Translations under genes and position numbers: made by a program | Shown here: piece by piece, positions 1,499 through 49,591 of the stretch | Layout of the letters: each line of letters opens with the position of its first letter | Numbering within the stretch: the stretch's first letter is position 1 | The notes under the pieces: generated by a model | What the model saw: the letters and a program-made list of their open reading frames with translations, nothing else | What the model was told of the DNA's origin: nothing | Database searches by the model: none | Source: a phage | DNA: 64,000 nucleotides | Assembly (NCBI GenBank): GCA_012646185.1 | Contig: GCA_012646185.1_4706.1 | Reading direction: 5' to 3' (one strand)

Positions 1499-2296
1499 TT
1501 AACGTGTTCTCCTATCACGATGCGTATACGACTGAAGACCGATGTCCATATGCGGTAACGTCAGCGTCTGCCAGATCTGTCGTGCGTAGCGATCGAGCGT
1601 ATGATCGTCAGTAACACAATCGACGGGTTCGATGAGGTGGGTCGTATACTGGCTTTTCTCGGAGAAAGGTTCGAGGTTAGCTGTATCGCCTAATCCGCTT
1701 TTCACTGTGAAGACAAGACGTGTGACTATCATCGCTTTATGTTGCTGTTCATTATAACGAAGGCTGCGGTATACGGCATAGCTCCCTCCTTTTAGGCTTC
1801 GGGTATAACGAAGGTCGGAGGTCGTCTCGGAAATCTGATACAGCATCCAGTCCAACGTATCACGCCAGTACGCATCATCCACATCAGGAACCGTGATACC
1901 GTATCGCGTAGGCAGCAATTCTAAAAGCAATTTATAAAGTCCGCGACGCAGACCATGCTCTTCTGTTTCCGATAAACCGTTTCCAACGTAACGTGAAATA
2001 CGTGTACGTAAATACGTACGGATGAACATATTCGCCATCAAGGTCTTCACTCTGCTACTGGTATCCTCAAAGCGATCAACGCTGAAACTCGTTTCAATCA
2101 GTCGTCCATTAAAATACAATGCGGCAACATACATCGCGTTATTACTATCACGTTCAATGTTTAAACGTCCGCAGATATTGGCTGCGTCGTTCATGGTGAA
2201 TTCTAATTTATCGTGTTCGATACGATAGATAATATCCTCTTGGGTTGCCAGGCTCGCAATGCGACGGTAGCCCGGAGAAGTACGTTTTACACTCAT
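1499..2296 (-). CDS. hypothetical protein
   Basis: ORF track gives 1499..2335; start trimmed to the ATG at 2296 (residue M14), which has a GAGGA SD 5 nt upstream; the track start codon lies inside the TTTATGCCG motif directly after a terminator hairpin. Confidence 0.55.
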   Translation of the reverse strand: MSVKRTSPGYRRIASLATQEDIIYRIEHDKLEFTMNDAANICGRLNIERDSNNAMYVAALYFNGRLIETSFSVDRFEDTSSRVKTLMANMFIRTYLRTRISRYVGNGLSETEEHGLRRGLYKLLLELLPTRYGITVPDVDDAYWRDTLDWMLYQISETTSDLRYTRSLKGGSYAVYRSLRYNEQQHKAMIVTRLVFTVKSGLGDTANLEPFSEKSQYTTHLIEPVDCVTDDHTLDRYARQIWQTLTLPHMDIGLQSYTHRDRRTR

Positions 2297-2328
2297 GATT
2301 GTCCTCGTTTTCAATTTTAAGATTGCAT

Positions 2329-2338
2329 GCGGCATAAA
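2329..2338 (-). promoter_or_regulatory. late-promoter-like motif TTTATGCCG (minus strand) directly after a hairpin
   Basis: Plus strand gcggcataaa adjacent to hairpin 2339-2363; one of five copies of this arrangement (also 10852, 14900, 37167, 59785). Confidence 0.45.
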
Positions 2339-2363
2339 CCCTCCCCGCCTTATGCAGGGAGGG
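2339..2363 (-). terminator. GC-rich hairpin between co-oriented genes
   Basis: ccctccc - 11-nt loop - gggaggg, between the CDS ending at 2379 and the CDS starting at 2296. Confidence 0.45.
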
Positions 2364-2378
2364 CAGCCATTAAATGGA

Positions 2379-3017
2379 TTAACCTAATTTACCACCGGCA
2401 ATGTTGGTGAAATCTTCGCCATCAGGAACTTGCAGTAGGATACGTGCCATGTCCCAGTTGGTTAATGTAATTGCTTTATCATCGATACTCAGTTCTGGTA
2501 GGTCGAGTTCATGATCATCAAACTCGTAGGAAATACTCCACGTTTCATCTGTTTTAGGATCGGTTATCAACACACCGTCTGTTACACGCATGTAGTCCGG
2601 ATGCAATTCATTACTGAATGTGCTGAACGGATCGGTGTAACATTCAGCATACCCCTCGATCTGCTGACGTTGCGCCTTCGTACGTAATTCAGGGCACGCC
2701 ATAATCAGTTGTCGAGATATGCCGTTTGCAGCACGGAAGTCTTCCACGGTGTTGCATGGCATAACCACATCGTCATGGAAGATGTTCTCCGATTGTCTCA
2801 ACAGCGTCTTACGGAGTTCAGCATAGTTTATCTGATTGAATGCGTCGAACGTTGCTAACGATTCAGCGTAAAAATGCTTTACGTGTTCGCTTGCACTGCC
2901 GAGGCTATTCATCAGCTTGTGGCCGTACTCCATAAAGCTTTTATCGAGACCGGAGGACATTTCTCCGAACCTCAGTGCACGATAACTGTCTCGTCCACCT
3001 GTAAATATTTGCGCCAT
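2379..3017 (-). CDS. hypothetical protein
   Basis: 212-aa ORF; ATG preceded by AGGAGG SD immediately after the stop of the upstream exon. Confidence 0.65.
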   Translation of the reverse strand: MAQIFTGGRDSYRALRFGEMSSGLDKSFMEYGHKLMNSLGSASEHVKHFYAESLATFDAFNQINYAELRKTLLRQSENIFHDDVVMPCNTVEDFRAANGISRQLIMACPELRTKAQRQQIEGYAECYTDPFSTFSNELHPDYMRVTDGVLITDPKTDETWSISYEFDDHELDLPELSIDDKAITLTNWDMARILLQVPDGEDFTNIAGGKLG

Positions 3018-3032
3018 TACAGGCGTCCTCCT

Positions 3033-3254
3033 TTAGCAATGGTTGTTAGTTGCTTCTATTTCATCAAGATACGGTTCTACGTCATCGCCCTCCACGAATT
3101 CGTTGAACCAACAGTCAATGGTAGAAATAACCGGTGACTGGTGTTCACATTTCTTAGATACCTTAAAAGGCACGTTATTATCCATCATACCGAGTTCGGG
3201 TCGAAAACGCCCGAAATGTTTCGCAGTCCAAATGTCTGGGACGATATGGTTGTT
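3033..3254 (-). CDS. exon 3 of beta-prime-like gene (73 codons + stop)
   Basis: Begins AAC AAC CAT ATC GTC CCA (NNHIVP, cf. E. coli QMAVHVP after DFDGD) immediately after an intron-terminal G at 3255; in frame with the micro-exon. Confidence 0.7.
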   Translation of the reverse strand, partial: NNHIVPDIWTAKHFGRFRPELGMMDNNVPFKVSKKCEHQSPVISTIDCWFNEFVEGDDVEPYLDEIEATNNHC

Positions 3255-5233
3255 CATCAAAATCTTCAGTATGAATCGCTACTTCATACCCGCAGCATTA
3301 CCTGCAGCTCCTGGTGTTACCAGGATGTTGAGAGTATATCATGCCCATATTCCAAATGGAACGTAGGACTTCCGCGCTGGATCTCGCTTGAGACCACTTA
3401 CTCGTTGAACGTTCTCCTAAACGGAGCTTCGCTGCTGATTGGACATTGTTACGTACGGTAGGCGTCCCATTAAAGGGATTTTCATTGAAGCCGCGTACAT
3501 CCGTTACCTTGTTTCTACCTTATCGGTTCCTCTTACGAGGCGTAACGGCTTTAGCCTATTCCAGCAATTCACGGAATGCATATTCTCCTTTTCAGGAGAT
3601 AAGGCCATGGCTCTGGCATCACCGTCAAAGTCCACATATCTTCAGTATGAATCGCTACTTCATACCCGCAGCATTACCTGCAGCTCCTGGTGTTACCAGG
3701 ACGGAGAGATCATCTCATCACCCACGAAGGGTGTTCCGCGCTACCCTCAGCGAATTCGAGGGACATGATCGTTGAACCTTCCACCGATAATCGGTGGCTA
3801 GGCTGCTGATTAAACATTGTACGTTGGGGTGGCATCCTGGTTCAGGACTGTCGTTGAAGCCTCCCAACATCCACTCACTTATTTCCGCCTTATCGGCTCC
3901 CATAAGGGCAGAGTGGCTTTAGCCCGTCTCAGCAATTCACGGAATTCAAGCTCTTCCTTTCAGAAGGCAGGGCCTCATCTGAAGCATTGTATCCCTTAAG
4001 GATCATCACGCTTAACCCGATGGTGTTATCCTGCGGATCGCGTTTAACCTTGGTGATTTCAAGACATTGGTTACTGCTTCGGTCAAGTGATGGGTTTCGA
4101 ACAAAGCCGCACACAATCCCATCGAACGGCGTATCAGCAATAAGCTCATCGTGCAGCTCGCTCATCATCGGATGATAATTACGGACATGTTCCGCAACGA
4201 ACGCACGCGCTGCTCTCGGTGAGTAACCACGATGGAATAACTTGGATTGGATATGTTCTTTATTGGTTAAAGTAAATGGTGCGTATGGGAAATGCAGATG
4301 ATAATAACGATGGTTCGCTGTTATCGAACTGATTACGGTACGCGTGGTGAATGGATGTAATGTACCTAATATGTTTTTACGTGTAATACCTTTCTTCTTA
4401 CCGATGAACTCATCGAAAATCGCTGCGTGGTATTGCAGTAGCTTCAATTGCACTTTCGCCATCCAGTTTTCTTTCTTTCTGGCGCTCAAAGGTGTTGTTG
4501 GATGATAGATACTGTTCAACGTACCAATAGCATCGATCGCACCTTCCATTTTGCTATCCGCATAACGACCGGTCGGCGTATTTTCGATAACGAACATCAT
4601 GGCTGCAGGAAAGCTGATATACTGACTGAAGAACTTATCACGATGGATACGGATGAATTCTCGTAGCGTGTCAACTTTCTCCATGTTCTTCGGTCCACGT
4701 AACGTCGGTCCTTTATACAAGATCTCCATGATGCGATCGAAGTTCTGTATAAAGCTATTTACGCCACGCCGTATCCCGAATACATCGAATTGCTGCTCCA
4801 GATAGTTCTTGAGTTCGATGGGTCGTTTTACATTTGGACGGTAACTGGCATCAATGAGCCACGTCATCGTTTCAAAGCTTTTGATATTCAACTCGCTTGC
4901 CAGCACGAGATGGACCAACGGGTTAATGAACGCATCGATTCCTTCAGGAACGCGCGCCCAAACCGTCGAACGAATCTCTTGTTCTGCTGGGTAGGTTACA
5001 ACCGTTTTACAGTTTGGACACACCGTGCCGAGTAGCTCACCACGATTGTAGAAACCACAACCACATTGTGGTGTGATATCCAACGTATCGCTGGAGTAAA
5101 CACGGGTGATAAAACTGTTTAATTTCTTCTTCTCTTCGACGACTTTTGTATCGTAATCATTCAACAAAATCGGCGTGAAAGGAAGTTCTGCGAGCTGTCT
5201 ATCGAAACTCACGATATCGAGCATGATGGCCAT
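3033..5233 (-). CDS. RNA polymerase beta-prime-like subunit, N-terminal fragment type (non-virion RNAP by synteny); gene interrupted by two group I introns
   Basis: Exon 1 carries a Cys4 zinc-ribbon (CGCG...CPNC), a match to the beta-prime GKRVDYSGRSVI region (RKNILGTLHPFTTRTVIS) and an NRAPTLH-like RNPSLD; the spliced product of exons 3983..5233 + 3618..3632 + 3033..3254 (495 aa) reads ...KGYNA-DFDGD-NNHIVPD..., restoring the universal NADFDGD Mg-binding motif; AGGAG SD before the ATG at 5233. Confidence 0.75.
3255..3617 (-). ncRNA. group I intron (no ORF), 3'-proximal member of a tandem pair
   Basis: On the minus strand, in canonical order: P-like GAAUUGCUGGAAU (plus 3561-3573), Q-like AAUCAGCAGC (plus 3431-3440), R-like GUUCAACGAGUAAG (plus 3397-3410), S-like GAUAUACUCU (plus 3331-3340) with P7 pairing GAGUA/UACUC; ends in G; preceding exon ends in U. 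Confidence 0.75.
3618..3632 (-). CDS. 15-nt micro-exon encoding D-F-D-G-D (catalytic aspartate triad)
   Basis: Minus strand GAC TTT GAC GGT GAT lies exactly between the two introns, in frame with exon 1 (ends ...TAC AAT GCT = YNA) and exon 3. Confidence 0.7.
3633..3982 (-). ncRNA. group I intron (no ORF), 5'-proximal member of a tandem pair
   Basis: P-like GAAUUGCUGAGA (plus 3928-3940), Q-like AAUCAGCAGCC (plus 3801-3811), R-like GGUUCAACGAUCAUG (plus 3764-3778), S-like GAUGAUCUCUC (plus 3704-3714) with P7 GAUCAU/AUGAUC; ends in G at 3633; exon 1 ends in U at 3983. Confidence 0.8.
3983..5233 (-). CDS. exon 1 of beta-prime-like gene (417 codons)
   Basis: ORF-track ORF 3929..5233 truncated at the 5' splice site; the 18 track codons after ...GYNA (SDEALPSERKSLNSVNC) are intron-encoded and overlap the intron P element. 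Confidence 0.7.
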
Positions 5234-5275
5234 GGGGTATCTCCTACAAATGAAAAAGAACGTTAGGACGTATAA

Positions 5276-5299
5276 GGGAGGGAGGTTGCCCTCCCTCCC
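5276..5299 (-). terminator. GC-rich hairpin after the shell-protein gene
   Basis: gggagggagg-ttg-cctccctccc, with a U-rich stretch ~15 nt downstream on the minus strand. Confidence 0.5.
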
Positions 5300-5325
5300 G
5301 TCAGATTACATCGAACGTTCTTCCA

Positions 5326-7221
5326 TTAGAACAGGTTGAATGCCCCACCCATGTTGTTAACGCCAACATTCGGACGATCGCTACGTGCGTAGATGTTACC
5401 GGAGATGTTACCCAGACCACGAGCACGTGCTGCCATGTTACCACGAACAGCGGTACCTGCCAGATGCTGGATGTTCTCAGGACGGATGGTGAAGCCAGCA
5501 TCAGCCGCAGCTTCGATCAGCGCCTGCAGTGCTAACGGATCGAAGTCGTAACGCATTGCCCAGCCGGTTTGTTCCCAGCTACCAGACAGAACACGATCGA
5601 TGATTTCGTGACGAGCGACAACACGCTGAGACATCGTCATATCGGTACGGTCGAAGCTGTCTTCCCAAGCTTCTACGGTATCCGGGTTAGTGATGTTCAT
5701 CATGTACAGATCGTCCATATCACGAATATCGTGACGGTGACCATCCTGGTGGTTGTAGTAACCCAGCGGGATACGGTTACCGGTAGCGTAGACCAGCGGT
5801 TGGCCGTATTGATATTTCTTGCTGAAGCAACCCAGGGTAGTATCATCGAAGGCACGGTAAAGTGCTTTGTAGCCTTCAGAGACTTCCTGAACTTTACCTT
5901 CAACATTACCCGTATAGATCTTCTCAGCCGCCGGGATCATACGCAGCAGCCAGCTGTATTCGCCTTCTTCCGGTACGTCGATAGAAATCAGCAGAGACGG
6001 ATACAGAACCTGTTGCAGGAACTTGTAAATCTGCTCGTTGGTTTGCGTAGACAGATCCAGCGGTGCAGTCACTTCAGGATCCAGCACCATCGCCAGAGCA
6101 CCTGGGTTATGCGGACCAATACCACGAGCCGCGTTGCTGATTAAAGACTGTGCCCATGCCATGCCGCTGTTCAGCGTAGCGATGGTACCAATCAGACCCA
6201 GCACGAAGCTGTTCGGTGTGAACGCATCCAGCTCCAGCGGGTAAGCGCTGGTCATCACGTAACGCGGCTGGTATTGTACAGTCGGCGGTACCGGATAGCC
6301 GTTAACCAGAACAGGGCCTTGGTTGAAGGTCGGGTTCTGCGGGCTGTAGGTCAGGTCGATGTAACCGGTGGTGGCGACCAGACGCTGTTGACTATCGTAA
6401 TCGCTCATCGCTTGACGGATGCGGTTAGAGATAGTTACAGTGATGTCAGAACGCACAGGGTTACCAACAATATCACTGTCCTGCATACCGCTGGTGTTGT
6501 ACTGAACGCTGCTGATTGGCTGATCGCTTGCCATCATGCCCAGGTTGAACTGCGGCAGACCCAGTTTATCACCGAGACGGATTTCGATTGCGGTCTGGAT
6601 TGCGTTATCTGCAGCAGACAGCAGGGTGGTTGCCAGATGCGCAGATTCAGCGGTGATTTCATTGGTCACCACAGCCAGACCAGCGATACGAACAGTACCG
6701 TTAGACTTACCGCCAATAGCTGAATACATTGCCGCCATGACTTCGTTGATGAACGTACCGTTCAGGTTATCAACCCAGGTACGCGGTACCAGAATGTTAC
6801 CATGCGGACCTTGTTCTTCACGACGCGGCAGCGGAGCCAGACCAGCAACCAGCGGCAGGACGTAACCGAAGAAGTGGTTATGATCACCAACTTTTGCACC
6901 GCTCATAACAACCAGGGTCGGATACGGTACGCTGTACTGGTTCGGGTCAACCGCAACAAAGATGAAGTCGTCTTTGAACTGGGTATCTTCCAGATATTTC
7001 TCCATCAGACGACGGAGATTCAGTACCTGCTCGGAGCCGGTATTACGGCTGATACGACGGCTCAGTGTACGGTTGATCGTACGCATCGTATGAGTTACTT
7101 TAGGACGGTCGGCAAAATCTGCAGCGGTTTCCAGCGCCTCATCAGCACGTTGTGCGGTGCGGGTTTCAGCTGCACGAATTTCTACATTATCGTTACCGTT
7201 ATTACGTACGTCTAAGCCCAT
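5326..7221 (-). CDS. chmA: chimallin-like phage nucleus shell protein (putative)
   Basis: 631-aa ORF, strong AAGAGGAA SD, codon usage typical of an abundant protein, early-promoter motif ~70 nt upstream, immediately upstream of a beta-prime-like RNAP gene as in phiKZ (gp54-gp55); identification rests on size and synteny, not on a catalytic motif. Confidence 0.55.
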   Translation of the reverse strand: MGLDVRNNGNDNVEIRAAETRTAQRADEALETAADFADRPKVTHTMRTINRTLSRRISRNTGSEQVLNLRRLMEKYLEDTQFKDDFIFVAVDPNQYSVPYPTLVVMSGAKVGDHNHFFGYVLPLVAGLAPLPRREEQGPHGNILVPRTWVDNLNGTFINEVMAAMYSAIGGKSNGTVRIAGLAVVTNEITAESAHLATTLLSAADNAIQTAIEIRLGDKLGLPQFNLGMMASDQPISSVQYNTSGMQDSDIVGNPVRSDITVTISNRIRQAMSDYDSQQRLVATTGYIDLTYSPQNPTFNQGPVLVNGYPVPPTVQYQPRYVMTSAYPLELDAFTPNSFVLGLIGTIATLNSGMAWAQSLISNAARGIGPHNPGALAMVLDPEVTAPLDLSTQTNEQIYKFLQQVLYPSLLISIDVPEEGEYSWLLRMIPAAEKIYTGNVEGKVQEVSEGYKALYRAFDDTTLGCFSKKYQYGQPLVYATGNRIPLGYYNHQDGHRHDIRDMDDLYMMNITNPDTVEAWEDSFDRTDMTMSQRVVARHEIIDRVLSGSWEQTGWAMRYDFDPLALQALIEAAADAGFTIRPENIQHLAGTAVRGNMAARARGLGNISGNIYARSDRPNVGVNNMGGAFNLF

Positions 7222-8636: not shown

Positions 8637-10790
8637 TTACTCTGCGGTTTCTTGCTTCGGTAAATAACTTGCTGCAATGTCTTGGGCTAACAATGTATTG
8701 TTTTTATTCGAGATGAAAATACCGTAACTTTCCATTAACGCGTAATACGAACGCACGAGCGTAGAGATCAATCGACGAATATCCATACCTTGAATAAAGA
8801 TATCGGGAAGCCCGGAGGCTTCGATCACCGGTAATGGTATCGTTAAGTTGCTTATCGTTTTCTTATCGTTACGTACAATCCAATCACGGAAACGTTGTTG
8901 TAACCCTTTATCCTCCCAGGAATCAATCCAATCGTTAAGAAGCGTTTTGTTCTTCGTCGCCAACGGCACACGAACCCCAACATAGGGTGGTTCCTGGCAA
9001 TGGCCGTACGATTGAGCAAACACCTCTTCCCACATATCGTAAGACTGTTTCGTTACTGCAACATGCGGTTTCACTTTAACACGTGTTAAGAAATCGGGAT
9101 CACCTCGTTTCATGGACTCAACGATTTCGTTTTCTAACGAGATAATATCATCAAGAACCAATCGAATGCTGATCTTCTCATTACGTAACAGCTTATCCAT
9201 GATACCACACATCATGCGTTCAACACGTTTGACGATCATTTTTGGTGCTGACGCATCACGCATAACAGGACCTTTCAATTCCAGCTTCGGTGGATTGATA
9301 GGAACCCCTTCACGCATGGTCATGTAACCGTAATAGTTTTTACCCATCGAGGTTAACGACAGAATCAAGAACATATATTCGTTCTTCATTTCCATTACGT
9401 ACATATGCTCTTTCGCTACACCGATATTACCAGAACACATCGCCATCAGATGAACCGTAATCTGCGTAACCAGATAGATAAGCGTATTTGCTAAGCGCGT
9501 CGAAACTGGATTGATCTCCATATTTCCAAATCGCCACTGAACCCACTCCTGGCAGGTAAACACCGTCGAGTCGGTATCAGACAACACACCCACTTCACGG
9601 ATTGCTGATGGGAAAGCATAAACGCCAGCCGGTTGGTTCTCGGTACGCCAGAACGCCATAATCAAATCAGCATAGCTTTGAATACGCTGTAGCATTAATT
9701 TTGTCGTTGCTGCAGTAAGACGATAACCAAGCTCATTTCCTTTTTCTAGCGCTACGTAAATCGCTTCCCCGTTCAAGAACTCCGTGCATTGTGCTGTAAT
9801 CCAAGCGACCGTGTTGTTATCCATGGAAGCAATAATGGCTTTAGCCTCTTCCATCGTTTCAACCGGTTCGGATGCCAGTTCACATAACGAGTCAAGAAAA
9901 TCTCGAACAAATTCAGGATTAAGCTCACGTAACGAGTACAGGTTATTGCTGTACATGTAGCAGGCACGTTCCAGTGGGGTTAAACCAGTAATTAACTCCC
10001 GGATAATCAGTTCTTTCTCTGGGTCGAAAGTATATCGATGCAAGCATTTCGATACGTTAGCCCAAACCTCTTCCGGTGTAGGGTAATGTAATTTGTATTT
10101 TACCATTACCTGTTCAATGGCTTTACGATCGCTGTTACGGACAATACTTACGATGTTTTCGATTGCGATATCACAATCGTAATAATGGAAATTGCCCGCA
10201 AGGAAGCGTTCGTTGTTCGCATTGGCTGAACCTGAAGCACAGCGACATGTTGTCGTTAAACTTGGATGCGCGATCGGATTATAAAAAGGGTTAAACTTGG
10301 ACGCCTGGGTTCCTGACAAACTGTTGTTATCTAACTTGGTGTTGGTTTGTCGTTTATCGTGTAACTCAGCTTCATCTTTACGTCCGTGTGCTTGTGCTAT
10401 CGACATTTGTTTCTTTTGTTTCTTACGCAACTTACCGTTTTCAACCGCGAAGTCGCTTAGCACACTGGAGCGTGTCTCACGTGGGTAACAGTTAGCCCAC
10501 ACCGGCGTGATAATTAAATTATTTTCTTTAATATCGTTGAAGTATTGGCTGAACTTGATGACTTCTTTTTCTCGATTTCCTTCGGTACGCTGTGTTAATA
10601 CAAGACAGTCGGGATCAACCATCCCGTATTTTCCACCAGGACGAACCGTTTCAAGAACAAACTGCAACGCTTCCTGCTGTGATATCCCACGCATGCGCAT
10701 TAAGAACAGGGTATAATCCTGTACCGCTTCTTTGGTCATATCCAACGTACGACCATATCCGTTTTCATCGTAAAAGAACGGATTTTCCAT
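8637..10790 (-). CDS. hypothetical protein (717 aa)
   Basis: Long ORF with TGGAGGA SD; contains an SDTDS peptide but no other polymerase or P-loop motif, so no function is called. Confidence 0.7.
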   Translation of the reverse strand: MENPFFYDENGYGRTLDMTKEAVQDYTLFLMRMRGISQQEALQFVLETVRPGGKYGMVDPDCLVLTQRTEGNREKEVIKFSQYFNDIKENNLIITPVWANCYPRETRSSVLSDFAVENGKLRKKQKKQMSIAQAHGRKDEAELHDKRQTNTKLDNNSLSGTQASKFNPFYNPIAHPSLTTTCRCASGSANANNERFLAGNFHYYDCDIAIENIVSIVRNSDRKAIEQVMVKYKLHYPTPEEVWANVSKCLHRYTFDPEKELIIRELITGLTPLERACYMYSNNLYSLRELNPEFVRDFLDSLCELASEPVETMEEAKAIIASMDNNTVAWITAQCTEFLNGEAIYVALEKGNELGYRLTAATTKLMLQRIQSYADLIMAFWRTENQPAGVYAFPSAIREVGVLSDTDSTVFTCQEWVQWRFGNMEINPVSTRLANTLIYLVTQITVHLMAMCSGNIGVAKEHMYVMEMKNEYMFLILSLTSMGKNYYGYMTMREGVPINPPKLELKGPVMRDASAPKMIVKRVERMMCGIMDKLLRNEKISIRLVLDDIISLENEIVESMKRGDPDFLTRVKVKPHVAVTKQSYDMWEEVFAQSYGHCQEPPYVGVRVPLATKNKTLLNDWIDSWEDKGLQQRFRDWIVRNDKKTISNLTIPLPVIEASGLPDIFIQGMDIRRLISTLVRSYYALMESYGIFISNKNNTLLAQDIAASYLPKQETAE

Positions 10791-45897: not shown

Positions 45898-45900
45898 GGG

Positions 45901-46080
45901 TTAGGCTCCACGAGGTCCCGTTAAGTTGCGTAACAGGAACGCAACTGTATCGTAACCAATATCAATGTTGAATTTATTTTTACCGCTTACCCAGAAAGCA
46001 CGCTTCTTGTGTGAGTTGGTAATTTCGTCAATAGCTTCCATGGAATAAAGAACGTTAACCGAGACCGTATCACCGTCGAA
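45901..46080 (-). CDS. exon 2 of virion-type beta-prime-like gene (59 codons + stop)
   Basis: Begins TTC GAC GGT GAT ACG GTC (FDGDTVSVNVLYSMEAIDE, cf. E. coli FDGDQMAVHVPLTLEAQLE) right after an intron-terminal G at 46081; stop TAA lies 3 nt before the ATG of the beta-like gene. Confidence 0.7.
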   Translation of the reverse strand, partial: FDGDTVSVNVLYSMEAIDEITNSHKKRAFWVSGKNKFNIDIGYDTVAFLLRNLTGPRGA

Positions 46081-49000
46081 CCTTGTCTTCGCCTCAGGTC
46101 GCTACGCTGAGACCGCCTGCATGGATACGTACATCACAGGCTGCTTGCACTTTCATGCAAGAGGAGACTATATCAAACCGGCAGCGCAACCTGCTACGGT
46201 AACCTACACTTCGAAGACGCTCGTCCTCTACAGGGTGGTAAATCCCTTAGTCGTTGAACCTGCGTTGTTTCACATTCTTGTTTGTAAGAATGTCGTATTA
46301 CTACGCAACAACCAGGCTGCTGATTGCCCATTGTTTCGCACCTTAGCACCGCTTACGCGGCTTTTCTTTCAGCCTAAGCCTCTTACGGAGGTAGTGCATC
46401 TCAACTGTTGTTTCTGCCTTTCGGCACCTCATGGGTCGTTGAGCTTTAGGGGTTCCCAGCATTTCGTAGGTTTTTCAAGCACTCCCTTTCGGGAATACCG
46501 GACTCATTATTAGCTTATTTATTCAAGTATCTGAAATCCCACTTATCTTTACGTCGTTTATCGCACTTGATGTCAGGATGATTAACACGATGCCTAATAG
46601 TTGTTGCCGATAGCTGGCTGAGATTCTCAGCAGATCGTGCGCCAAGAACAACGAGTTTTGTGTCGTCTGGACGCGTAACTTCTACTGCCCGATAATGCTT
46701 ACGTAACACATCACGCCAATATTCACGACGTTCTGGTTCAGCATACTCAAGCATGTAACCGTTAACATCTACTAAACCGTAGCTTTCGTTTAATCGAGAG
46801 GTAGCGGCTGGTTTACTAATACCGATTGCTTTAGCCGCATCGACCACGGTTTTATACGGGGTCTCATTACCGTCTCTATCTACAACCACAATGAAATCTG
46901 GACGTGAATCGAGTAGCTGCTGTCTGCGTTCGACGGCTTGTTGATGAAGCACCATGTTAACGTGTTCGAACCCGTAACCTTCTGGACCGTGCCACCCTGG
47001 ATTGTTATTCGCTCGATAAAGTACCGTCGCAGATTTCACTCCAGTCTGACGTGACGCCTCGTTTGCACTATGAACAACCGTGGTAGAGCCGTCAGGGTGA
47101 TATATCCGTATCTGGTTCATTATACCGGAACCAATGAAGTTACCATCAGCTGATTTAATATCCGGCCATGGTTGAGGATCATCTTTGAATTTAACCACCC
47201 AGCGGTTATTAAACAGTTTGACTTTTCGAACATGTTTGCCCATTGTCGTATCCGTAACACCTGCGACTACTGATGCCTGTGTGATACTCAGGTACTCAGT
47301 AACGGTATCGTTCCATGTATCCCAAAGCAGAACCGGTTTATTGTCGTCGCGTAAACCGTATTCGATGGCGTGTAGAACGTTACGACTTCTGGTCGCCCAT
47401 TCAAGATTATCGAGAGAGTAATTCCATTTGTCGGCATCGAGATGATTAACGTCCAACTTATCGACATTAGCCGGATATTCCCGCCACGCCAACATCAAGC
47501 AGCGATGCAGAACCTTAGTTCTCGTTACATCCCGACAATCATGACGTAGACTAATGAATACGTAATTATCCTTTTTCGGATACGATCTACATTCCTGACC
47601 GTCTTTGCGGCGAATAACTCGTCCTTTCTCATTTATCAGATAACGGGTGTGTCCAGGAATGACACGATAACCAGGGTACTTAGCGATTTCGTAAGCAGGC
47701 TCGAACCGATAGGATAAATTATCAACATCCCAGTTAGATTCGTCACCATCAACAAACATCGCTTTGACGTACTTCTGTGTTTCAATATCAACCAGGATGT
47801 TTTTGTGTGCGATACAAATCAATGCTGGGATATTGAATTCACGACCGGCTAAGATAACCATGTCGCCATTTCTCGGTATCACGACGTGGGTATCACGATA
47901 CCGTAAATTTCCATAGCCGTCTATTTCAATCCAGCTTAGAAACGGAATGGATATAAACTCTTTTTCAGATACTCGCCATTTAAACATCTTAATACCTATT
48001 TAATACTAAACATCATATTAATAGGTTTAAAAGTTAAAAATGACAGAAAATGGCTAAATTGAATCACCGCCTAAACCGGCGAGGTACGGGGCAGGAACAA
48101 TAGTAGTTTCTACGAATGATGCATTAGGTAACCAGTCGGGGTATTCCCATGCGATAAATCGTTCATCCGTTATTGGTTCCCAGTTACTATCCAGTTCGGT
48201 TTTCGGTTTTGCCGCAACGGTTGTACGTGCGTAACAGGTTAACGGGATAACGGATTGCATACCGGATACCGGATAACGTGTTACCATCGCAGCCAGGTTA
48301 TTCCAGTACTTATAACCAGCGATATAAATAAGCTCGGTGTAAGTAATGGGGTGAACATCCGCACCAGGCTTATTCAACATCTCCGGAGGTAATTCACTCA
48401 TACCACGGAATAACCGAAACGAATCATTGTTCACATAGACGAGGCAAAGATATCGTCCATTGACCATGATAGGCTCGTTACGCACGCCAGGATCGCTTAA
48501 GGTGTTCAGTAAACGTTCTATTCCGTCCCAGGTTGTAAAGTCATCGATGGTGTCTGGATCAAGCGTGACACGTTCACGTTCCATCGTTTCGGTATCAATA
48601 AGTTCAACTTCTGTAACGTCACGAACAAATATTTCCTGCAAAATACCGGTACGTAACGCATGTTGCGTTACTGGGAGAGCAGCTTTACTCATCTGGTATA
48701 ACCCTAACTGAACTGCGGTACAGGAAGGCTGGTTAGGCGACCCTAATACCTCCGTTGTGGGGTTAATTGCCGAAATAACGTTACGGGTTGAGTTCCAAAC
48801 GCGACGTGAACCAAACTTCCCTTGGAAGATCCCTTTCTTACCTTGGAACATATCCAACAACAAAGCGTAGATATCGTTAAACGTTCTCTGTAAGCTCCAG
48901 CGTTGGCCGTCGTAAACGGGATCGGAATAATCTTTTAATCCATCAGGGACGGTGTTAGAAATTGCAAGGAAACGACGATACAACTCCGTGATTTCTTGCT

Positions 49001-49529
49001 CGCTTTCATACCCACCTTCTTTTACTTCTATTTCACGTAAACCCGCAGGTAAAACCAGTAGATGACGAGTCATCGCTTTGAACATGTTCTCTTCGACGAC
49101 TTTAATTCGTAGCTCTCGTTGAGCTGAACCCGTTGAAACGAACTTAATATCAGCGACGTGTTGTGCAAAGAACCCGTACCCTGTCTGTCCTGTTAACGCA
49201 TCAGACGCAACGAAGTCGCGTTGTTCAGGATCCCAACGCGCGTACGCCTTCCCCGACATGATATCGCCATAGAGGTGTTTTAGTCGAATGAGACGATCGT
49301 AGATGACAGGATGTAGGATTTCAACCTTGCATTCAATCACCGCAAATCGACGGTCTCGATCTTCACTACCCGCACTACCAAAGATGGTGTATGAATAGAA
49401 ACCGTCATCGTGGAAATTACCGGTGCTTGGATCACGAATGCTCATGCTCGTGATCTTGGGGAGAAAACGTAACTGCTGTTTATCGAGGTGTAAAATACTA
49501 ATATTAAACGGCTCTCTGACTTTAGCCAT
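45901..49529 (-). CDS. RNA polymerase beta-prime-like subunit, N-terminal fragment type (virion RNAP by synteny); gene interrupted by a group I intron
   Basis: Exon 1 shows GLFxxxIFGP-like (DGFYSYTIFGS), QGKFGSRRVWNSTRNVISAINP (cf. [26 protein letters not shown]) and TRYPVSG (cf. NRAPTLH); splicing 48063..49529 to 45901..46080 gives ...YLAGLGGD-FDGD-TVSVNV... (548 aa); AAGAGGAG SD before the ATG at 49529. Confidence 0.75.
46081..48062 (-). ncRNA. group I intron carrying an HNH homing-endonuclease ORF (mobile intron)
   Basis: Minus strand: 5' exon ends GGT GAT (U); ORF 46515..47987 lies in the 5' part; core follows with P-like GAAAUGCUGGGAAC (plus 46451-46465), Q-like AAUCAGCAGCC (46314-46324), R GUUCAACGACUAAG (46246-46260), S GAUAUAGUCUC (46164-46174), P7 GACUA/UAGUC; ends in G. 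Confidence 0.8.
46515..47987 (-). CDS. HNH homing endonuclease (intron-encoded)
   Basis: 490 aa; HNH_3-type motif VNHLDADKWNYSLDNLEWATRSRNVLH; C-terminal helix-turn-helix-like AKAIGISKPAATSRL; lies entirely within the intron. Confidence 0.8.
   Translation of the reverse strand: MFKWRVSEKEFISIPFLSWIEIDGYGNLRYRDTHVVIPRNGDMVILAGREFNIPALICIAHKNILVDIETQKYVKAMFVDGDESNWDVDNLSYRFEPAYEIAKYPGYRVIPGHTRYLINEKGRVIRRKDGQECRSYPKKDNYVFISLRHDCRDVTRTKVLHRCLMLAWREYPANVDKLDVNHLDADKWNYSLDNLEWATRSRNVLHAIEYGLRDDNKPVLLWDTWNDTVTEYLSITQASVVAGVTDTTMGKHVRKVKLFNNRWVVKFKDDPQPWPDIKSADGNFIGSGIMNQIRIYHPDGSTTVVHSANEASRQTGVKSATVLYRANNNPGWHGPEGYGFEHVNMVLHQQAVERRQQLLDSRPDFIVVVDRDGNETPYKTVVDAAKAIGISKPAATSRLNESYGLVDVNGYMLEYAEPERREYWRDVLRKHYRAVEVTRPDDTKLVVLGARSAENLSQLSATTIRHRVNHPDIKCDKRRKDKWDFRYLNK
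48063..49529 (-). CDS. exon 1 of virion-type beta-prime-like gene (489 codons)
   Basis: ORF-track ORF 48054..49571 trimmed at both ends: start at the SD-supported ATG 49529; the last two track codons (S, I) and the stop are intron sequence. Confidence 0.65.
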
Positions 49530-49591
49530 GGAGACACTCCTCTTTACCACCACCGGCTGCGGCGGTATCATCTGAACACACGAGAGACGTA

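What the first reader, a model, noticed from the sequence alone, without database searches (positions are those of the whole stretch)
3255..3982. Two tandem group I introns bracket a 15-nt micro-exon that encodes exactly the catalytic DFDGD motif of an RNAP beta-prime-like subunit
Read on the minus strand, exon 1 ends ...GGA TAC AAT GCT (KGYNA). Two paralogous elements follow, each with P, Q, R and S-like core sequences in canonical order, each ending in G and each preceded by an exon U. Between them sit exactly 15 nt, GAC TTT GAC GGT GAT (DFDGD), and the downstream exon starts NNHIVPD. Splicing both introns restores ...YNADFDGDNNHIVP..., matching the universal NADFDGDQMAVHVP region, whereas the unspliced frame lacks the Mg-binding aspartates. 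The P7 helices of the two introns differ by compensatory changes (GAGUA/UACUC versus GAUCAU/AUGAUC), which argues for conserved RNA structure rather than chance. A micro-exon consisting only of the active-site pentapeptide, and requiring two splicing events for an active polymerase, is unusual.
Basis: partly seen in the sequence, partly recalled or inferred. Interest (0 to 1): 0.95.

Follow-up and report, generated by a model that had tools for sequence, protein, structure and literature searches.

The report
Two introns split polymerase active site

Summary
The observation largely holds. The window comes from a close relative of Escherichia phage Goslar. [quoted passage not shown] Two paralogous elements interrupt it. 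Both show the group I layout P1-P9.2, including the P7 pseudoknot, with strong covariation: 98% of cells paired, and 33 of 100 pairs compensatory against 1-3 in slid controls. Rfam scores are sub-threshold (27 and 23 bits, cut-off 50).

Intron-less homologs read NADFDGDAMNHH and NADFDGDEMNNH. The orthologous introns in Goslar and in a third variant have a canonical U.G pair three bases further downstream. The micro-exon is therefore 18 nt (3632..3615, DFDGDA), intron B is 3614..3258, and the mature protein reads YNADFDGDAMNNHIVPD (497 aa).

The arrangement is not unique. Goslar has a 13-nt micro-exon, one variant has three introns within 27 coding nt, and two distant phage contigs have 12-nt DFDG micro-exons. 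I found at least seven insertion sites around this motif. The window's second beta'-like gene is also split inside its DFDGD.

One anomaly remains: intron B has C-G instead of U.G at its 5' splice site.

Verdict: new member of a known kind, moderate interest.

The parts
3983..5233 (-). Exon 1 (417 codons) of the nvRNAP beta' N-terminal subunit gene, the PhiKZ gp055 homolog. It ends ...GGA TAC AAT GCT (G Y N A).
   Evidence: ORF and coordinates. PDB 7OGP_A (PHIKZ055) matches at E 1.3e-72, aligned across the junction. Pfam RNA_pol_Rpb1_2 scores 28.5 bits against a cut-off of 25.3.
3633..3982 (-). Intron A, 350 nt, group I, with no ORF of note. The 5' splice site follows GCU (U.G pair with IGS GAGGC); the last base is G.
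   Evidence: Rfam Intron_gpI 23.1 bits, full-length alignment. Covariation. MFE z-score -3.1. The 97%-identical copy in L077 carries compensatory changes in P9.2.
3615..3632 (-). Micro-exon, 18 nt, GAC TTT GAC GGT GAT GCC = D F D G D A. This is the Mg-binding loop of beta' plus one Ala.
   Evidence: Intron-less homolog DNA reads GAC TTT GAT GGT GAT GCC ATG AAC (L124). Homolog motif survey. Across four Goslar-like genomes all six variable sites in these 18 nt are synonymous.
3258..3614 (-). Intron B, 357 nt, group I, ortholog of the second Goslar intron. The 5' splice site follows GCC (C-G pair, not U.G); the last base is G, before ATG AAC.
   Evidence: Rfam 27.4 bits. It is 86-87% identical to Goslar L001:4277-4631 at the same site. 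Covariation. MFE z-score -2.7.
3033..3257 (-). Exon 3 (74 codons plus stop), ATG AAC AAC CAT ATC GTC CCA GAC... = MNNHIVPD...
   Evidence: Goslar annotates the equivalent as a separate 'hypothetical protein', gp185.
3972..3985 (-). P1 of intron A: exon/intron GCU|UC (3985..3981) pairs with internal guide GAGGC (3976..3972).
3604..3617 (-). P1 and P10 of intron B. GCC|A (3617..3614) pairs with UGGC (3607..3604). The adjacent CAU (3609..3607) is complementary to the first exon-3 bases AUG (P10), so guide CAUGGC matches the ligated junction GCC-AUG.
   Evidence: Goslar and L123 have GCU|U with AGGC, and also carry CAU.
3708..3770 (-). P7 pseudoknot of intron A: GAUCAU (3770..3765) with AUGAUC (3713..3708).
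3332..3403 (-). P7 pseudoknot of intron B: GAGUA(A) (3403..3398) with (A)UACUC (3337..3332).
3638..3701 (-). A 64-nt 3' domain (P9, P9.1, P9.2, GAAGAU tail) of intron A, identical to 3262..3325 of intron B.
   Evidence: The same segments are only 89% identical between the two introns of L077.
3262..3325 (-). A 64-nt 3' domain of intron B, identical to 3638..3701.

Best explanation
The minus-strand gene 5233..3033 encodes the beta' N-terminal subunit of the phage's non-virion RNA polymerase. It is interrupted by two HEG-less, paralogous, IA-like group I introns: A at 3982..3633 and B at 3614..3258. The pre-mRNA must lose both introns by the usual two-step, guanosine-initiated transesterification. 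This joins exon 1 (...AAU GCU), an 18-nt micro-exon (GAC UUU GAC GGU GAU GCC) and exon 3 (AUG AAC AAC...). The product is a 497-aa protein reading ...GYNADFDGDAMNNHIVPD.... Translation of unspliced RNA stops 17 codons into intron A and gives a subunit without the Mg-binding aspartates.

The introns are selfish elements that have piled up on the most conserved codons of the gene. Intron B is the resident intron shared with Goslar. Intron A is a diverged copy of the same lineage at a look-alike site 18 nt upstream (AAUGCU| versus GAUGC[U/C]|). Its 3' domain was recently homogenised with B by gene conversion.

Shown here: gene identity, RNA architecture with covariation, corrected junctions by comparison, and recurrence in other phages. 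Inferred: actual self-splicing, the order of events, the origin of A, and any benefit to the phage.
For: Gene identity: PDB 7OGP_A, PhiKZ gp055, E 1.3e-72, aligned through the junction. Pfam RNA_pol_Rpb1_2 above its cut-off. Chimallin and the divergent family B DNA polymerase lie next door. The exons are 97.9% identical to Goslar.

RNA: full-length Rfam Intron_gpI alignments for both elements. RNAalifold recovers P1-P9.2. On six homologous introns, 98% of cells pair against about 40% when partners are slid. 33 of 100 pairs have compensatory changes against 1-3 in slid controls, and 0 of 500 shuffles reach the observed values. The P7 pseudoknot has three pairs changed on both sides. MFE z-scores are -3.1 and -2.7.

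Junctions: intron-less homologs read DFDGDAMNHH and DFDGDEMNNH, and all 55+ homologs have DFDGD-x-[M/L/I/C]. L124 DNA reads GAT GCC ATG AAC. Goslar and L123 orthologs have a canonical U.G at the homologous column. A P10 pairing CAU/AUG is available. Four genomes with three intron configurations give co-linear 1494-nt CDSs and identical protein around the motif. Micro-exon differences are all synonymous.

Selfish-element context: Goslar has an HNH-endonuclease-bearing group I intron 5 nt downstream of site A. Silent substitutions cluster at the insertion sites: 8 of 32 within 34 nt, p about 5e-7. 17 of 77 related loci are interrupted in or next to the motif, mostly with Rfam hits above the gathering score at the break.
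Against: Neither intron reaches Rfam's gathering score (27.4 and 23.1 bits against 50).

Intron B in the window and in L077 has a C-G pair where group I introns almost always have U.G. In Tetrahymena that change weakens P1 docking about 80-fold (PMC1891724).

No clear P10 was found for intron A.

No transcript, proteomic or in vitro splicing data are available. Six related introns from four closely related phages are few independent lineages, so the covariation counts are inflated by shared ancestry.
Confidence: 0.82

Rival explanations
1. One reading: the same two group I introns, but intron B runs 3617..3255. The micro-exon is then exactly 15 nt (DFDGD) and the product reads ...YNADFDGDNNHIVP... 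(495 aa).
For: These junctions obey the textbook rule literally: exon U before the intron (GAU|) and G as the last intron base (GAUG|). AR9 beta' aligns to DGDNNHIVP without a gap. It avoids the C-G anomaly at the 5' splice site.
Against: The U of GAU has no G partner in any P1 register; column 24 is C. In Goslar the same position is GAC|, so the rule would fail there, whereas GCU| pairs canonically. The product lacks the conserved x-M after DFDGD found in the closest intact homologs and in PhiKZ gp55, and needs a 2-residue gap. It would make the window protein 2 aa shorter than those of Goslar, L077 and L123, which are otherwise about 99.6% identical.
Confidence: 0.08
2. The two modules splice as one composite unit, or the micro-exon is often skipped (5' splice site of A joined to 3' splice site of B). 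The in-frame product ...YNA|MNNH... lacks the catalytic loop. This could be the main outcome (a decaying gene) or a regulated, catalytically dead isoform.
For: The micro-exon is a multiple of 3, so skipping stays in frame. The two introns share an identical 64-nt 3' domain. Exon skipping by tandem group I introns is reported for phage Twort (Landthaler & Shub 1999, cited as reference 45 in PMC11620839; paper not held). Tandem group I modules that splice as one unit are described in Ophiostoma cox3 (PMC12308204).
Against: The micro-exon is under purifying selection as coding sequence: six variable sites in four genomes, all synonymous. The gene is a core, essential RNAP subunit with 2 or fewer amino-acid differences among these phages. 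Each intron has its own P1 guide matching its own 5' exon. As the main outcome this is very unlikely. As a minor by-product it is untested.
Confidence: 0.06
3. There is no splicing. The gene is naturally split or is a pseudogene, with exon 1 and exon 3 made as separate polypeptides (as annotated in Goslar), and the intron-like sequences are intergenic.
For: Jumbo-phage beta and beta' are already split into several genes (PMC7598289). The Goslar record annotates the pieces as separate CDSs. Rfam scores are below threshold.
Against: The DFDGD codons would then sit on an 18-nt island with no start codon, leaving the polymerase without its catalytic aspartates. Exon 3 has no ATG-initiated ORF of its own other than the junction ATG, and no evident ribosome-binding site was sought or found. 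The structured, covarying RNA is unexplained by this model. Intact homologs are single ORFs co-linear with exon 1 + micro-exon + exon 3.
Confidence: 0.03

Closest known systems
Group I introns of Escherichia phage Goslar in the same gene (NC_048170, ncRNA 'Intron_gpI' HOV27_gs001 plus HNH endonuclease gp186)
   Same: Same gene and same motif. Goslar's second, unannotated intron (L001:4277-4631) is the ortholog of window intron B, 86-87% identical and at the same site. Goslar also has a micro-exon, of 13 nt.
   Different: Goslar's first intron belongs to a different lineage. It carries an HNH_3/NUMOD1 endonuclease gene and sits after GAC UU, 5 nt downstream of the window's site A. The window instead has a HEG-less paralog of intron B. 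Goslar's B-type intron has the canonical U.G pair; the window has C-G.
PhiPA3 gp210 intron in the virion RNAP beta-subunit gene (Birkholz et al. 2024, PMC11620839)
   Same: A group I intron in a chimallivirus multisubunit RNAP gene, inserted at highly conserved catalytic-region aspartate codons. It is associated with an HNH nicking homing endonuclease used in phage-phage competition.
   Different: It is a single intron, in a different subunit (beta of vRNAP), and HEG-bearing. There is no micro-exon. Splicing and endonuclease activity were shown experimentally there, not here.
Intron-disrupted RNAP genes of Bacillus phage AR9 and Staphylococcus jumbo phages (Lavysh et al. 2016, as summarised in bioRxiv 10.1101/2020.12.14.422802)
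   Same: The AR9 nvRNAP beta' N-terminal subunit gene, the homolog of this gene, is reported as intron-disrupted. [quoted passage not shown]
   Different: The phage lineage is distant (E 1.5e-13 to AR9 beta'). I could not read the positions of the AR9 introns, and no micro-exon is described in the text I could access.
Multi-intron phage genes: Twort orf142 (three group I introns, exon skipping) and Twort nrdE (two introns); Landthaler & Shub 1999 and 2002, cited in PMC11620839 and PMC12908238
   Same: [quoted passage not shown]
   Different: Different genes. From my own knowledge, exon sizes there are larger than 18 nt. I could not check this because the paper is not held.
Micro-exons flanked by two group I introns in organelles: placozoan cox1 1-nt exon between two group IB introns (PMC5436844); Ophiostoma cob-201/219 with an 18-nt spacer (PMC12308204)
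   Same: Two independent group I introns inserted at neighbouring sites isolate a tiny exon that supplies an indispensable catalytic or ligand residue.
   Different: These are mitochondrial genes of eukaryotes with IB introns, not a phage or an RNA polymerase.

Membership tests
Group I catalytic intron (Rfam RF00028) | Score at or above Rfam's gathering threshold (50 bits) | tested here: not met
   27.4 bits (B) and 23.1 bits (A), as full-length alignments to model positions 1-253. L077 copies score 28.0 and 26.4. A roughly 100-nt P5 extension, a hairpin between P7 and P3' and non-consensus P7 sequences plausibly depress the score. Goslar's own annotated intron scores 46.9.
Group I catalytic intron | Core helices P3-P8 in canonical order with conserved P, Q, R, S elements, supported by covariation | tested here: met
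   RNAalifold and a hand-checked structure give 100 pairs in 19 helices. 98% of cells pair against 38-42% in slid controls. 33 pairs have changes on both sides against 1-3. 0 of 500 shuffles reach the observed values. P3 and P4 are invariant, so they are uninformative.
Group I catalytic intron | P3/P7 pseudoknot (P7 pairs across P3' and P8) | tested here: met
   Columns 229-234 pair with 298-303. Three of six pairs change on both sides, giving three distinct P7 versions. The closing G-C is invariant.
Group I catalytic intron | 5' splice site after a U that forms a U.G wobble with the internal guide in P1 | tested here: inconclusive
   Met for intron A (GCU|UC with GAGGC) and for the Goslar and L123 orthologs of B. 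Not met for window and L077 intron B, where C-G occupies the homologous column (UG:4, CG:2).
Group I catalytic intron | Terminal G (omega-G) at the 3' splice site | tested here: met
   A ends ...AUAUGUG|GAC and B ends ...AUUUUG|AUG. G is conserved in all six homologs.
Group I catalytic intron | Removal restores an uninterrupted, conserved ORF | tested here: met
   The spliced 497-aa product is co-linear with intact homologs P0002 and P0003 and with PhiKZ gp55. Four genomes give identical-length CDSs.
Group I catalytic intron | Self-splicing with exogenous guanosine | not testable with these tools
   Needs in vitro transcription and splicing, or RT-PCR.
Mobile group I intron with homing endonuclease | Intron-encoded or adjacent homing endonuclease gene | tested here: not met
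   All three frames of both introns are full of stop codons. The only ORF of 60 aa or more inside (3718..3903, 61 aa) has no Pfam match. The flanking ORFs that were scanned have no HNH, GIY-YIG or LAGLIDADG hit. Goslar's neighbouring intron does carry HNH_3 + NUMOD1.
Jumbo-phage nvRNAP beta' N-terminal subunit (PhiKZ gp055 family) | Sequence homology over the full length, including the NADFDGD Mg-binding loop | tested here: met
   7OGP_A matches at E 1.3e-72 over residues 21-474. N416, A417, D418, D420, G421 and D422 are invariant in a 32-sequence alignment. Pfam PF00623 scores above its cut-off.

The most novel reading that the evidence does not exclude
The pile-up of introns on the DFDGD codons may not be mere parasitism. 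It could be the footprint of an endonuclease arms race among co-infecting nucleus-forming phages. HEG-less introns at adjacent sites (as in this window) would chop the conserved target into an 18-bp island. That would make the essential polymerase gene immune to the nicking HNH endonucleases carried by rival introns, such as Goslar's at a site 5 nt away. This extends the PhiPA3 gp210 versus PhiKZ mechanism. A corollary is that splicing of two or three ribozymes in series, possibly with exon-skipped dead isoforms, gates the onset of middle and late transcription.
Probability: 0.2. Interest if true: 0.7.

Novelty: new member of a known kind. Interest (0 to 1): 0.42.

Why it matters
Practical consequences come first. 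The Goslar-family beta' gene is mis-annotated as separate hypothetical proteins. The correct mature protein is 497 aa with an intact NADFDGDAM loop. Gene callers and Rfam's threshold both miss these introns, so similar active-site micro-exons are probably overlooked in many phage genomes.

Biologically, this locus and its relatives offer a compact natural series: seven or more insertion sites within about 30 nt, one to four introns per gene, with and without endonuclease genes. The series suits the study of how group I introns compete for, share and protect a single conserved target. It also bears on how tandem ribozymes with near-identical domains avoid exon skipping, and on how splicing works in phages that separate transcription from translation.

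The C-G 5' splice site of intron B is a natural test of the U.G rule.

Tried and rejected
(1) Rfam at gathering threshold over the whole window found only the unrelated intron at 46144-46530. The permissive scan was needed to see A and B.

A 10-bp extended helix has a U-C mismatch at that U and competes with P2.

(3) I checked whether sliding the B junction could give the same mRNA with canonical U and G. It cannot.

(4) I looked for a P10 for intron A and found no convincing pairing.

(5) Full-length covariance-model building was not attempted, because a 350-390-column model exceeds the calibration limit. blastn of all intron variants against the window found no further copies.

(6) Searches for a homing endonuclease in or near A and B were negative.

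(7) Literature searches for Goslar, Chimalliviridae, DFDGD or micro-exon together with group I intron found no description of this arrangement. The Goslar genome paper does not mention introns. The Twort paper could not be read.

(8) The 16-mer scan of viral contigs mostly returned unrelated IA-type phage introns sharing the P3-P4 sequence. Only L035 (Goslar) and L077 were informative.

(9) The L169 second-intron junction could not be made canonical at both ends.
Full report
**What the window is.** Megablast of 3000-5300 finds only Escherichia phage vB_EcoM_Goslar, at 96.5% identity over 82% of the query, in two pieces that span 3.4 kb in Goslar. Neighbouring ORFs are a PhiKZ-type chimallin (7221..5326) and a divergent family B DNA polymerase (10790..8637). 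The window therefore comes from a Goslar-like, nucleus-forming jumbo phage.

**Checking the observation.** On the minus strand an ORF starts at 5233 and reads ...GGA TAC AAT GCT up to 3983. It then runs into SDEALPSERKSLNSVNC* (434 aa).
- The two intervening elements align with each other. They are 64% identical over the first 273 aligned positions and 100% over the last 64 nt.
- Rfam's group I model aligns end to end to both. P (AAUUGCUG), Q (AAUCAGCAGC), R (GUUCAACGA..) and S (GAUAUACUCU / GAGAUGAUCUC) occur in order.
- Scores are only 27.4 and 23.1 bits against a gathering score of 50. In a whole-window search only B survives, at E 0.006.
- MFE z-scores are -3.1 and -2.7.

**The gene.** Joining the exons gives a protein that matches PDB 7OGP chain A (PhiKZ gp055, the beta' N-terminal subunit of the non-virion RNAP) at E 1.3e-72 over residues 21-474, straight across the junction. 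It also matches AR9 beta' at E 1.5e-13. Pfam RNA_pol_Rpb1_2 is above its cut-off.

**RNA structure.** I collected six homologous introns:
- window A and B;
- their counterparts in L077, a 237.5-kb IMG/VR contig with the same tandem layout;
- the second Goslar intron (L001:4277-4631);
- its copy in L123, a Logan contig.

RNAalifold recovers P1, P2, P3, P4, P5 with a roughly 100-nt extension, P6/6a, a hairpin between P7 and P3' (IA-like P7.1), P8, P9, P9.1 and P9.2. I added the P7 pseudoknot by hand and counted pairs.
- 98.0% of cells pair, against 38-42% when partners are slid by 1-3 columns.
- 33 of 100 pairs show changes on both sides, against 1-3 in slid controls.
- The covariation score is 0.365 against 0.035-0.069, and 0 of 500 shuffles reach the observed values.
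- P7 exists in three compensating versions: GAUCAU/AUGAUC, GAGUA/UACUC and GAAUAC/GUAUUC.

The sequences come from few lineages, so the counts overstate independent events. Even so, the signal is far beyond the controls. I conclude that these are bona fide group I introns that Rfam's threshold misses.

A protein search returned intact homologs. The closest read GYNADFDGDAMNHHSAPD (P0002, 65% identity) and AYNADFDGDEMNNHIPPD (P0003, 62%). All of the roughly 55 others have DFDGD-x-[M/L/I/C]. The DNA of the intron-less P0002 gene reads GAT GGT GAT GCC ATG AAC (L124).

In the RNA alignment, P1 of the Goslar and L123 orthologs is GCU|U paired with AGGC. In all six sequences CAU lies just 5' of the guide and is complementary to AUG, the first bases of exon 3 under the corrected junction (P10).

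The corrected parts are:
- intron A: 3982..3633 (350 nt);
- micro-exon: 3632..3615 (18 nt, DFDGDA);
- intron B: 3614..3258 (357 nt);
- exon 3: 3257..3033.

With these rules the window, L077, Goslar and L123 have three different intron configurations, yet all give a 1494-nt CDS. The CDSs are 97.5-98% identical, with 2 or fewer amino-acid differences and an identical ...VMILKGYNADFDGDAMNNHIVPD.... The micro-exon differs among them at six sites, all synonymous. It is therefore translated in this frame.

**An anomaly.** In the window and in L077, the last base of the micro-exon is C, paired with G (GCC|A with UGGC). This replaces the near-universal U.G wobble. In the Tetrahymena ribozyme C-1.G raises the P1 undocking rate about 80-fold (PMC1891724). 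No alternative register gives the required mRNA with a U. I leave this unexplained. It may mean slow splicing, help from a cofactor, or tolerance in this intron lineage.

**Context: a hot spot, not a one-off.**
- Goslar has a different group I intron after GAC UU, with its guide GGAGUC pairing GACUUC. Its Rfam score is 46.9 bits and GenBank annotates it as Intron_gpI. It contains an HNH_3/NUMOD1 endonuclease gene. A 13-nt micro-exon CGACGGTGACGCT follows, then the B-type intron.
- L123 has three introns: one in the Tyr codon (GGG U|AU), a HEG-less copy of the Goslar intron, and the B type. Its micro-exons are 13 and 13 nt, so three ribozymes sit within 27 coding nucleotides.
- A profile-guided scan of viral contigs returned 78 loci of this gene. 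The scan was biased towards intact motifs.
  - 60 are intact through the motif. One ends at a contig edge. 17 are interrupted in or beside it.
  - Of the 14 interrupted loci scanned with Rfam (L174, L179 and L180 were not scanned), 11 have Intron_gpI hits above the gathering score at or soon after the break. L140, L148 and L157 have none.
- Seven insertion sites were seen: G-Y(U|AU), NA|D, NAD|F, DF(UU|C), DFDG|D, DFDGD| and DFDGDA|M.
- L152 and L169, which are about 30% identical in protein to the window, each have a 12-nt DFDG micro-exon between two introns. L167 has four tandem introns above the gathering score, and L152 has three.
- Many database proteins of this family are truncated inside NADFDGD for the same reason.

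**Mechanism and history (inferred).** Both introns lack endonuclease genes. They must splice for the phage to make an active non-virion polymerase. The unspliced message yields a truncated protein without the aspartates.

Intron B is the resident intron, shared at one site by all four Goslar-like genomes. Intron A belongs to the same lineage: it shares the P5 extension and the 3' domain, and it occupies a site with nearly the same 5' exon hexamer (AAUGCU against GAUGC[U/C]). That similarity fits transposition by reverse splicing, or homing from a relative. I could not determine the direction.

The 64-nt identical 3' domain in the window, only 89% identical in L077, indicates recent gene conversion between the tandem copies.

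Silent substitutions between the window and Goslar cluster at the insertion sites: 8 of 32 lie within 34 nt, binomial p about 5e-7. This is as expected from co-conversion during homing, or from selection on P1 pairing and endonuclease target sequences.

**Comparison with what is known.**
- Group I introns at conserved active-site codons of essential phage genes are textbook material (review PMC12908238).
- In chimalliviruses, the PhiPA3 vRNAP beta gene carries an intron with the nicking HNH endonuclease gp210, inserted right after two conserved aspartates. It acts in competition with PhiKZ (PMC11620839).
- Micro-exons isolated by two group I introns are documented in mitochondria: the placozoan cox1 1-nt exon (PMC5436844) and an 18-nt case in Ophiostoma cob (PMC12308204).
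- I found no paper describing the Goslar-family arrangement, the motif-wide hot spot, or a phage micro-exon of this kind.

**Verdict.** The finding is real, but one of its headline details needs correcting: 18 nt and DFDGDA, not 15 nt and DFDGD. The second intron is not preceded by U. It is a new member of a known kind. The hot-spot pattern, the multi-intron stacking and the non-canonical 5' splice site give it moderate rather than exceptional interest.

Noticed in passing
window 45900-49571 (minus strand); intron 46081-48062: A second beta'-like RNAP gene has weak PDB hits to AR9 beta', and its ...YLAGLGGDFDGDTVSV aligns to AR9 LLSALSGDYDGDVLNI. It is also split inside its DFDGD. Exon 1 ends ...GGC GGT GAT at 48063. 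A 1982-nt intron holds an HNH_3 endonuclease ORF (47987..46515) and the only Rfam Intron_gpI hit in the window above the gathering score (46530..46144, 56.3 bits). Exon 2 starts TTC GAC GGT GAT at 46080. The spliced product is 562 aa. The intron's 3' tail has the same GUAGCGA-loop hairpin and GAAGA tail as introns A and B.
   Followed up: partly
window 3638-3701 and 3262-3325: The 64-nt 3' domains (P9 to P9.2) of introns A and B are identical, while the rest of the two introns is 64% identical. In the related contig L077 the same domains are 89% identical. This points to recent gene conversion between the tandem copies.
   Followed up: yes
window 3615 (last base of the micro-exon): Intron B has C-G instead of the near-universal U.G wobble at the 5' splice site. 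L077 has the same, while the Goslar and L123 orthologs have U.G. The neighbouring pair changed compensatorily (U-A to A-U).
   Followed up: partly
spliced CDS nt 1236-1269 (window about 3998-3983, 3632-3615): Silent differences between the window and Goslar cluster at the intron insertion sites. 8 of 32 mismatches fall within 34 nt, all synonymous. This looks like co-conversion tracts or selection on guide pairing and endonuclease targets.
   Followed up: yes
L123 (Logan SRR5130533 contig) 1468-2590: A variant whose exon-1 protein is 100% identical to the window has three group I introns within 27 coding nucleotides, with two 13-nt micro-exons. Its read-through protein P0001 represents 159 database sequences. 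Exon base and guide base co-vary (GAC/GUC in Goslar against GAU/AUC here).
   Followed up: yes
L152 6470-7161; L169 4746-5486; L167 4643-6099: Distant homologs of the gene (about 30% protein identity) have 12-nt DFDG micro-exons between two group I introns (L152, L169), or four tandem Rfam-threshold introns (L167). In L169 the second intron cannot have both a U before it and a G at its end.
   Followed up: partly
L001 (Goslar NC_048170) 1568-4856: The public Goslar annotation lists exon 1 (gp247, 'RNA polymerase beta subunit'), one Intron_gpI, the HNH gene and exon 3 (gp185, 'hypothetical protein') as separate features. The second intron, the 13-nt micro-exon and the joined 497-aa CDS are not annotated.
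   Followed up: yes
window 3718-3903 (minus strand): A 61-aa ATG ORF lies inside intron A. It has no Pfam match and is probably fortuitous.
   Followed up: yes
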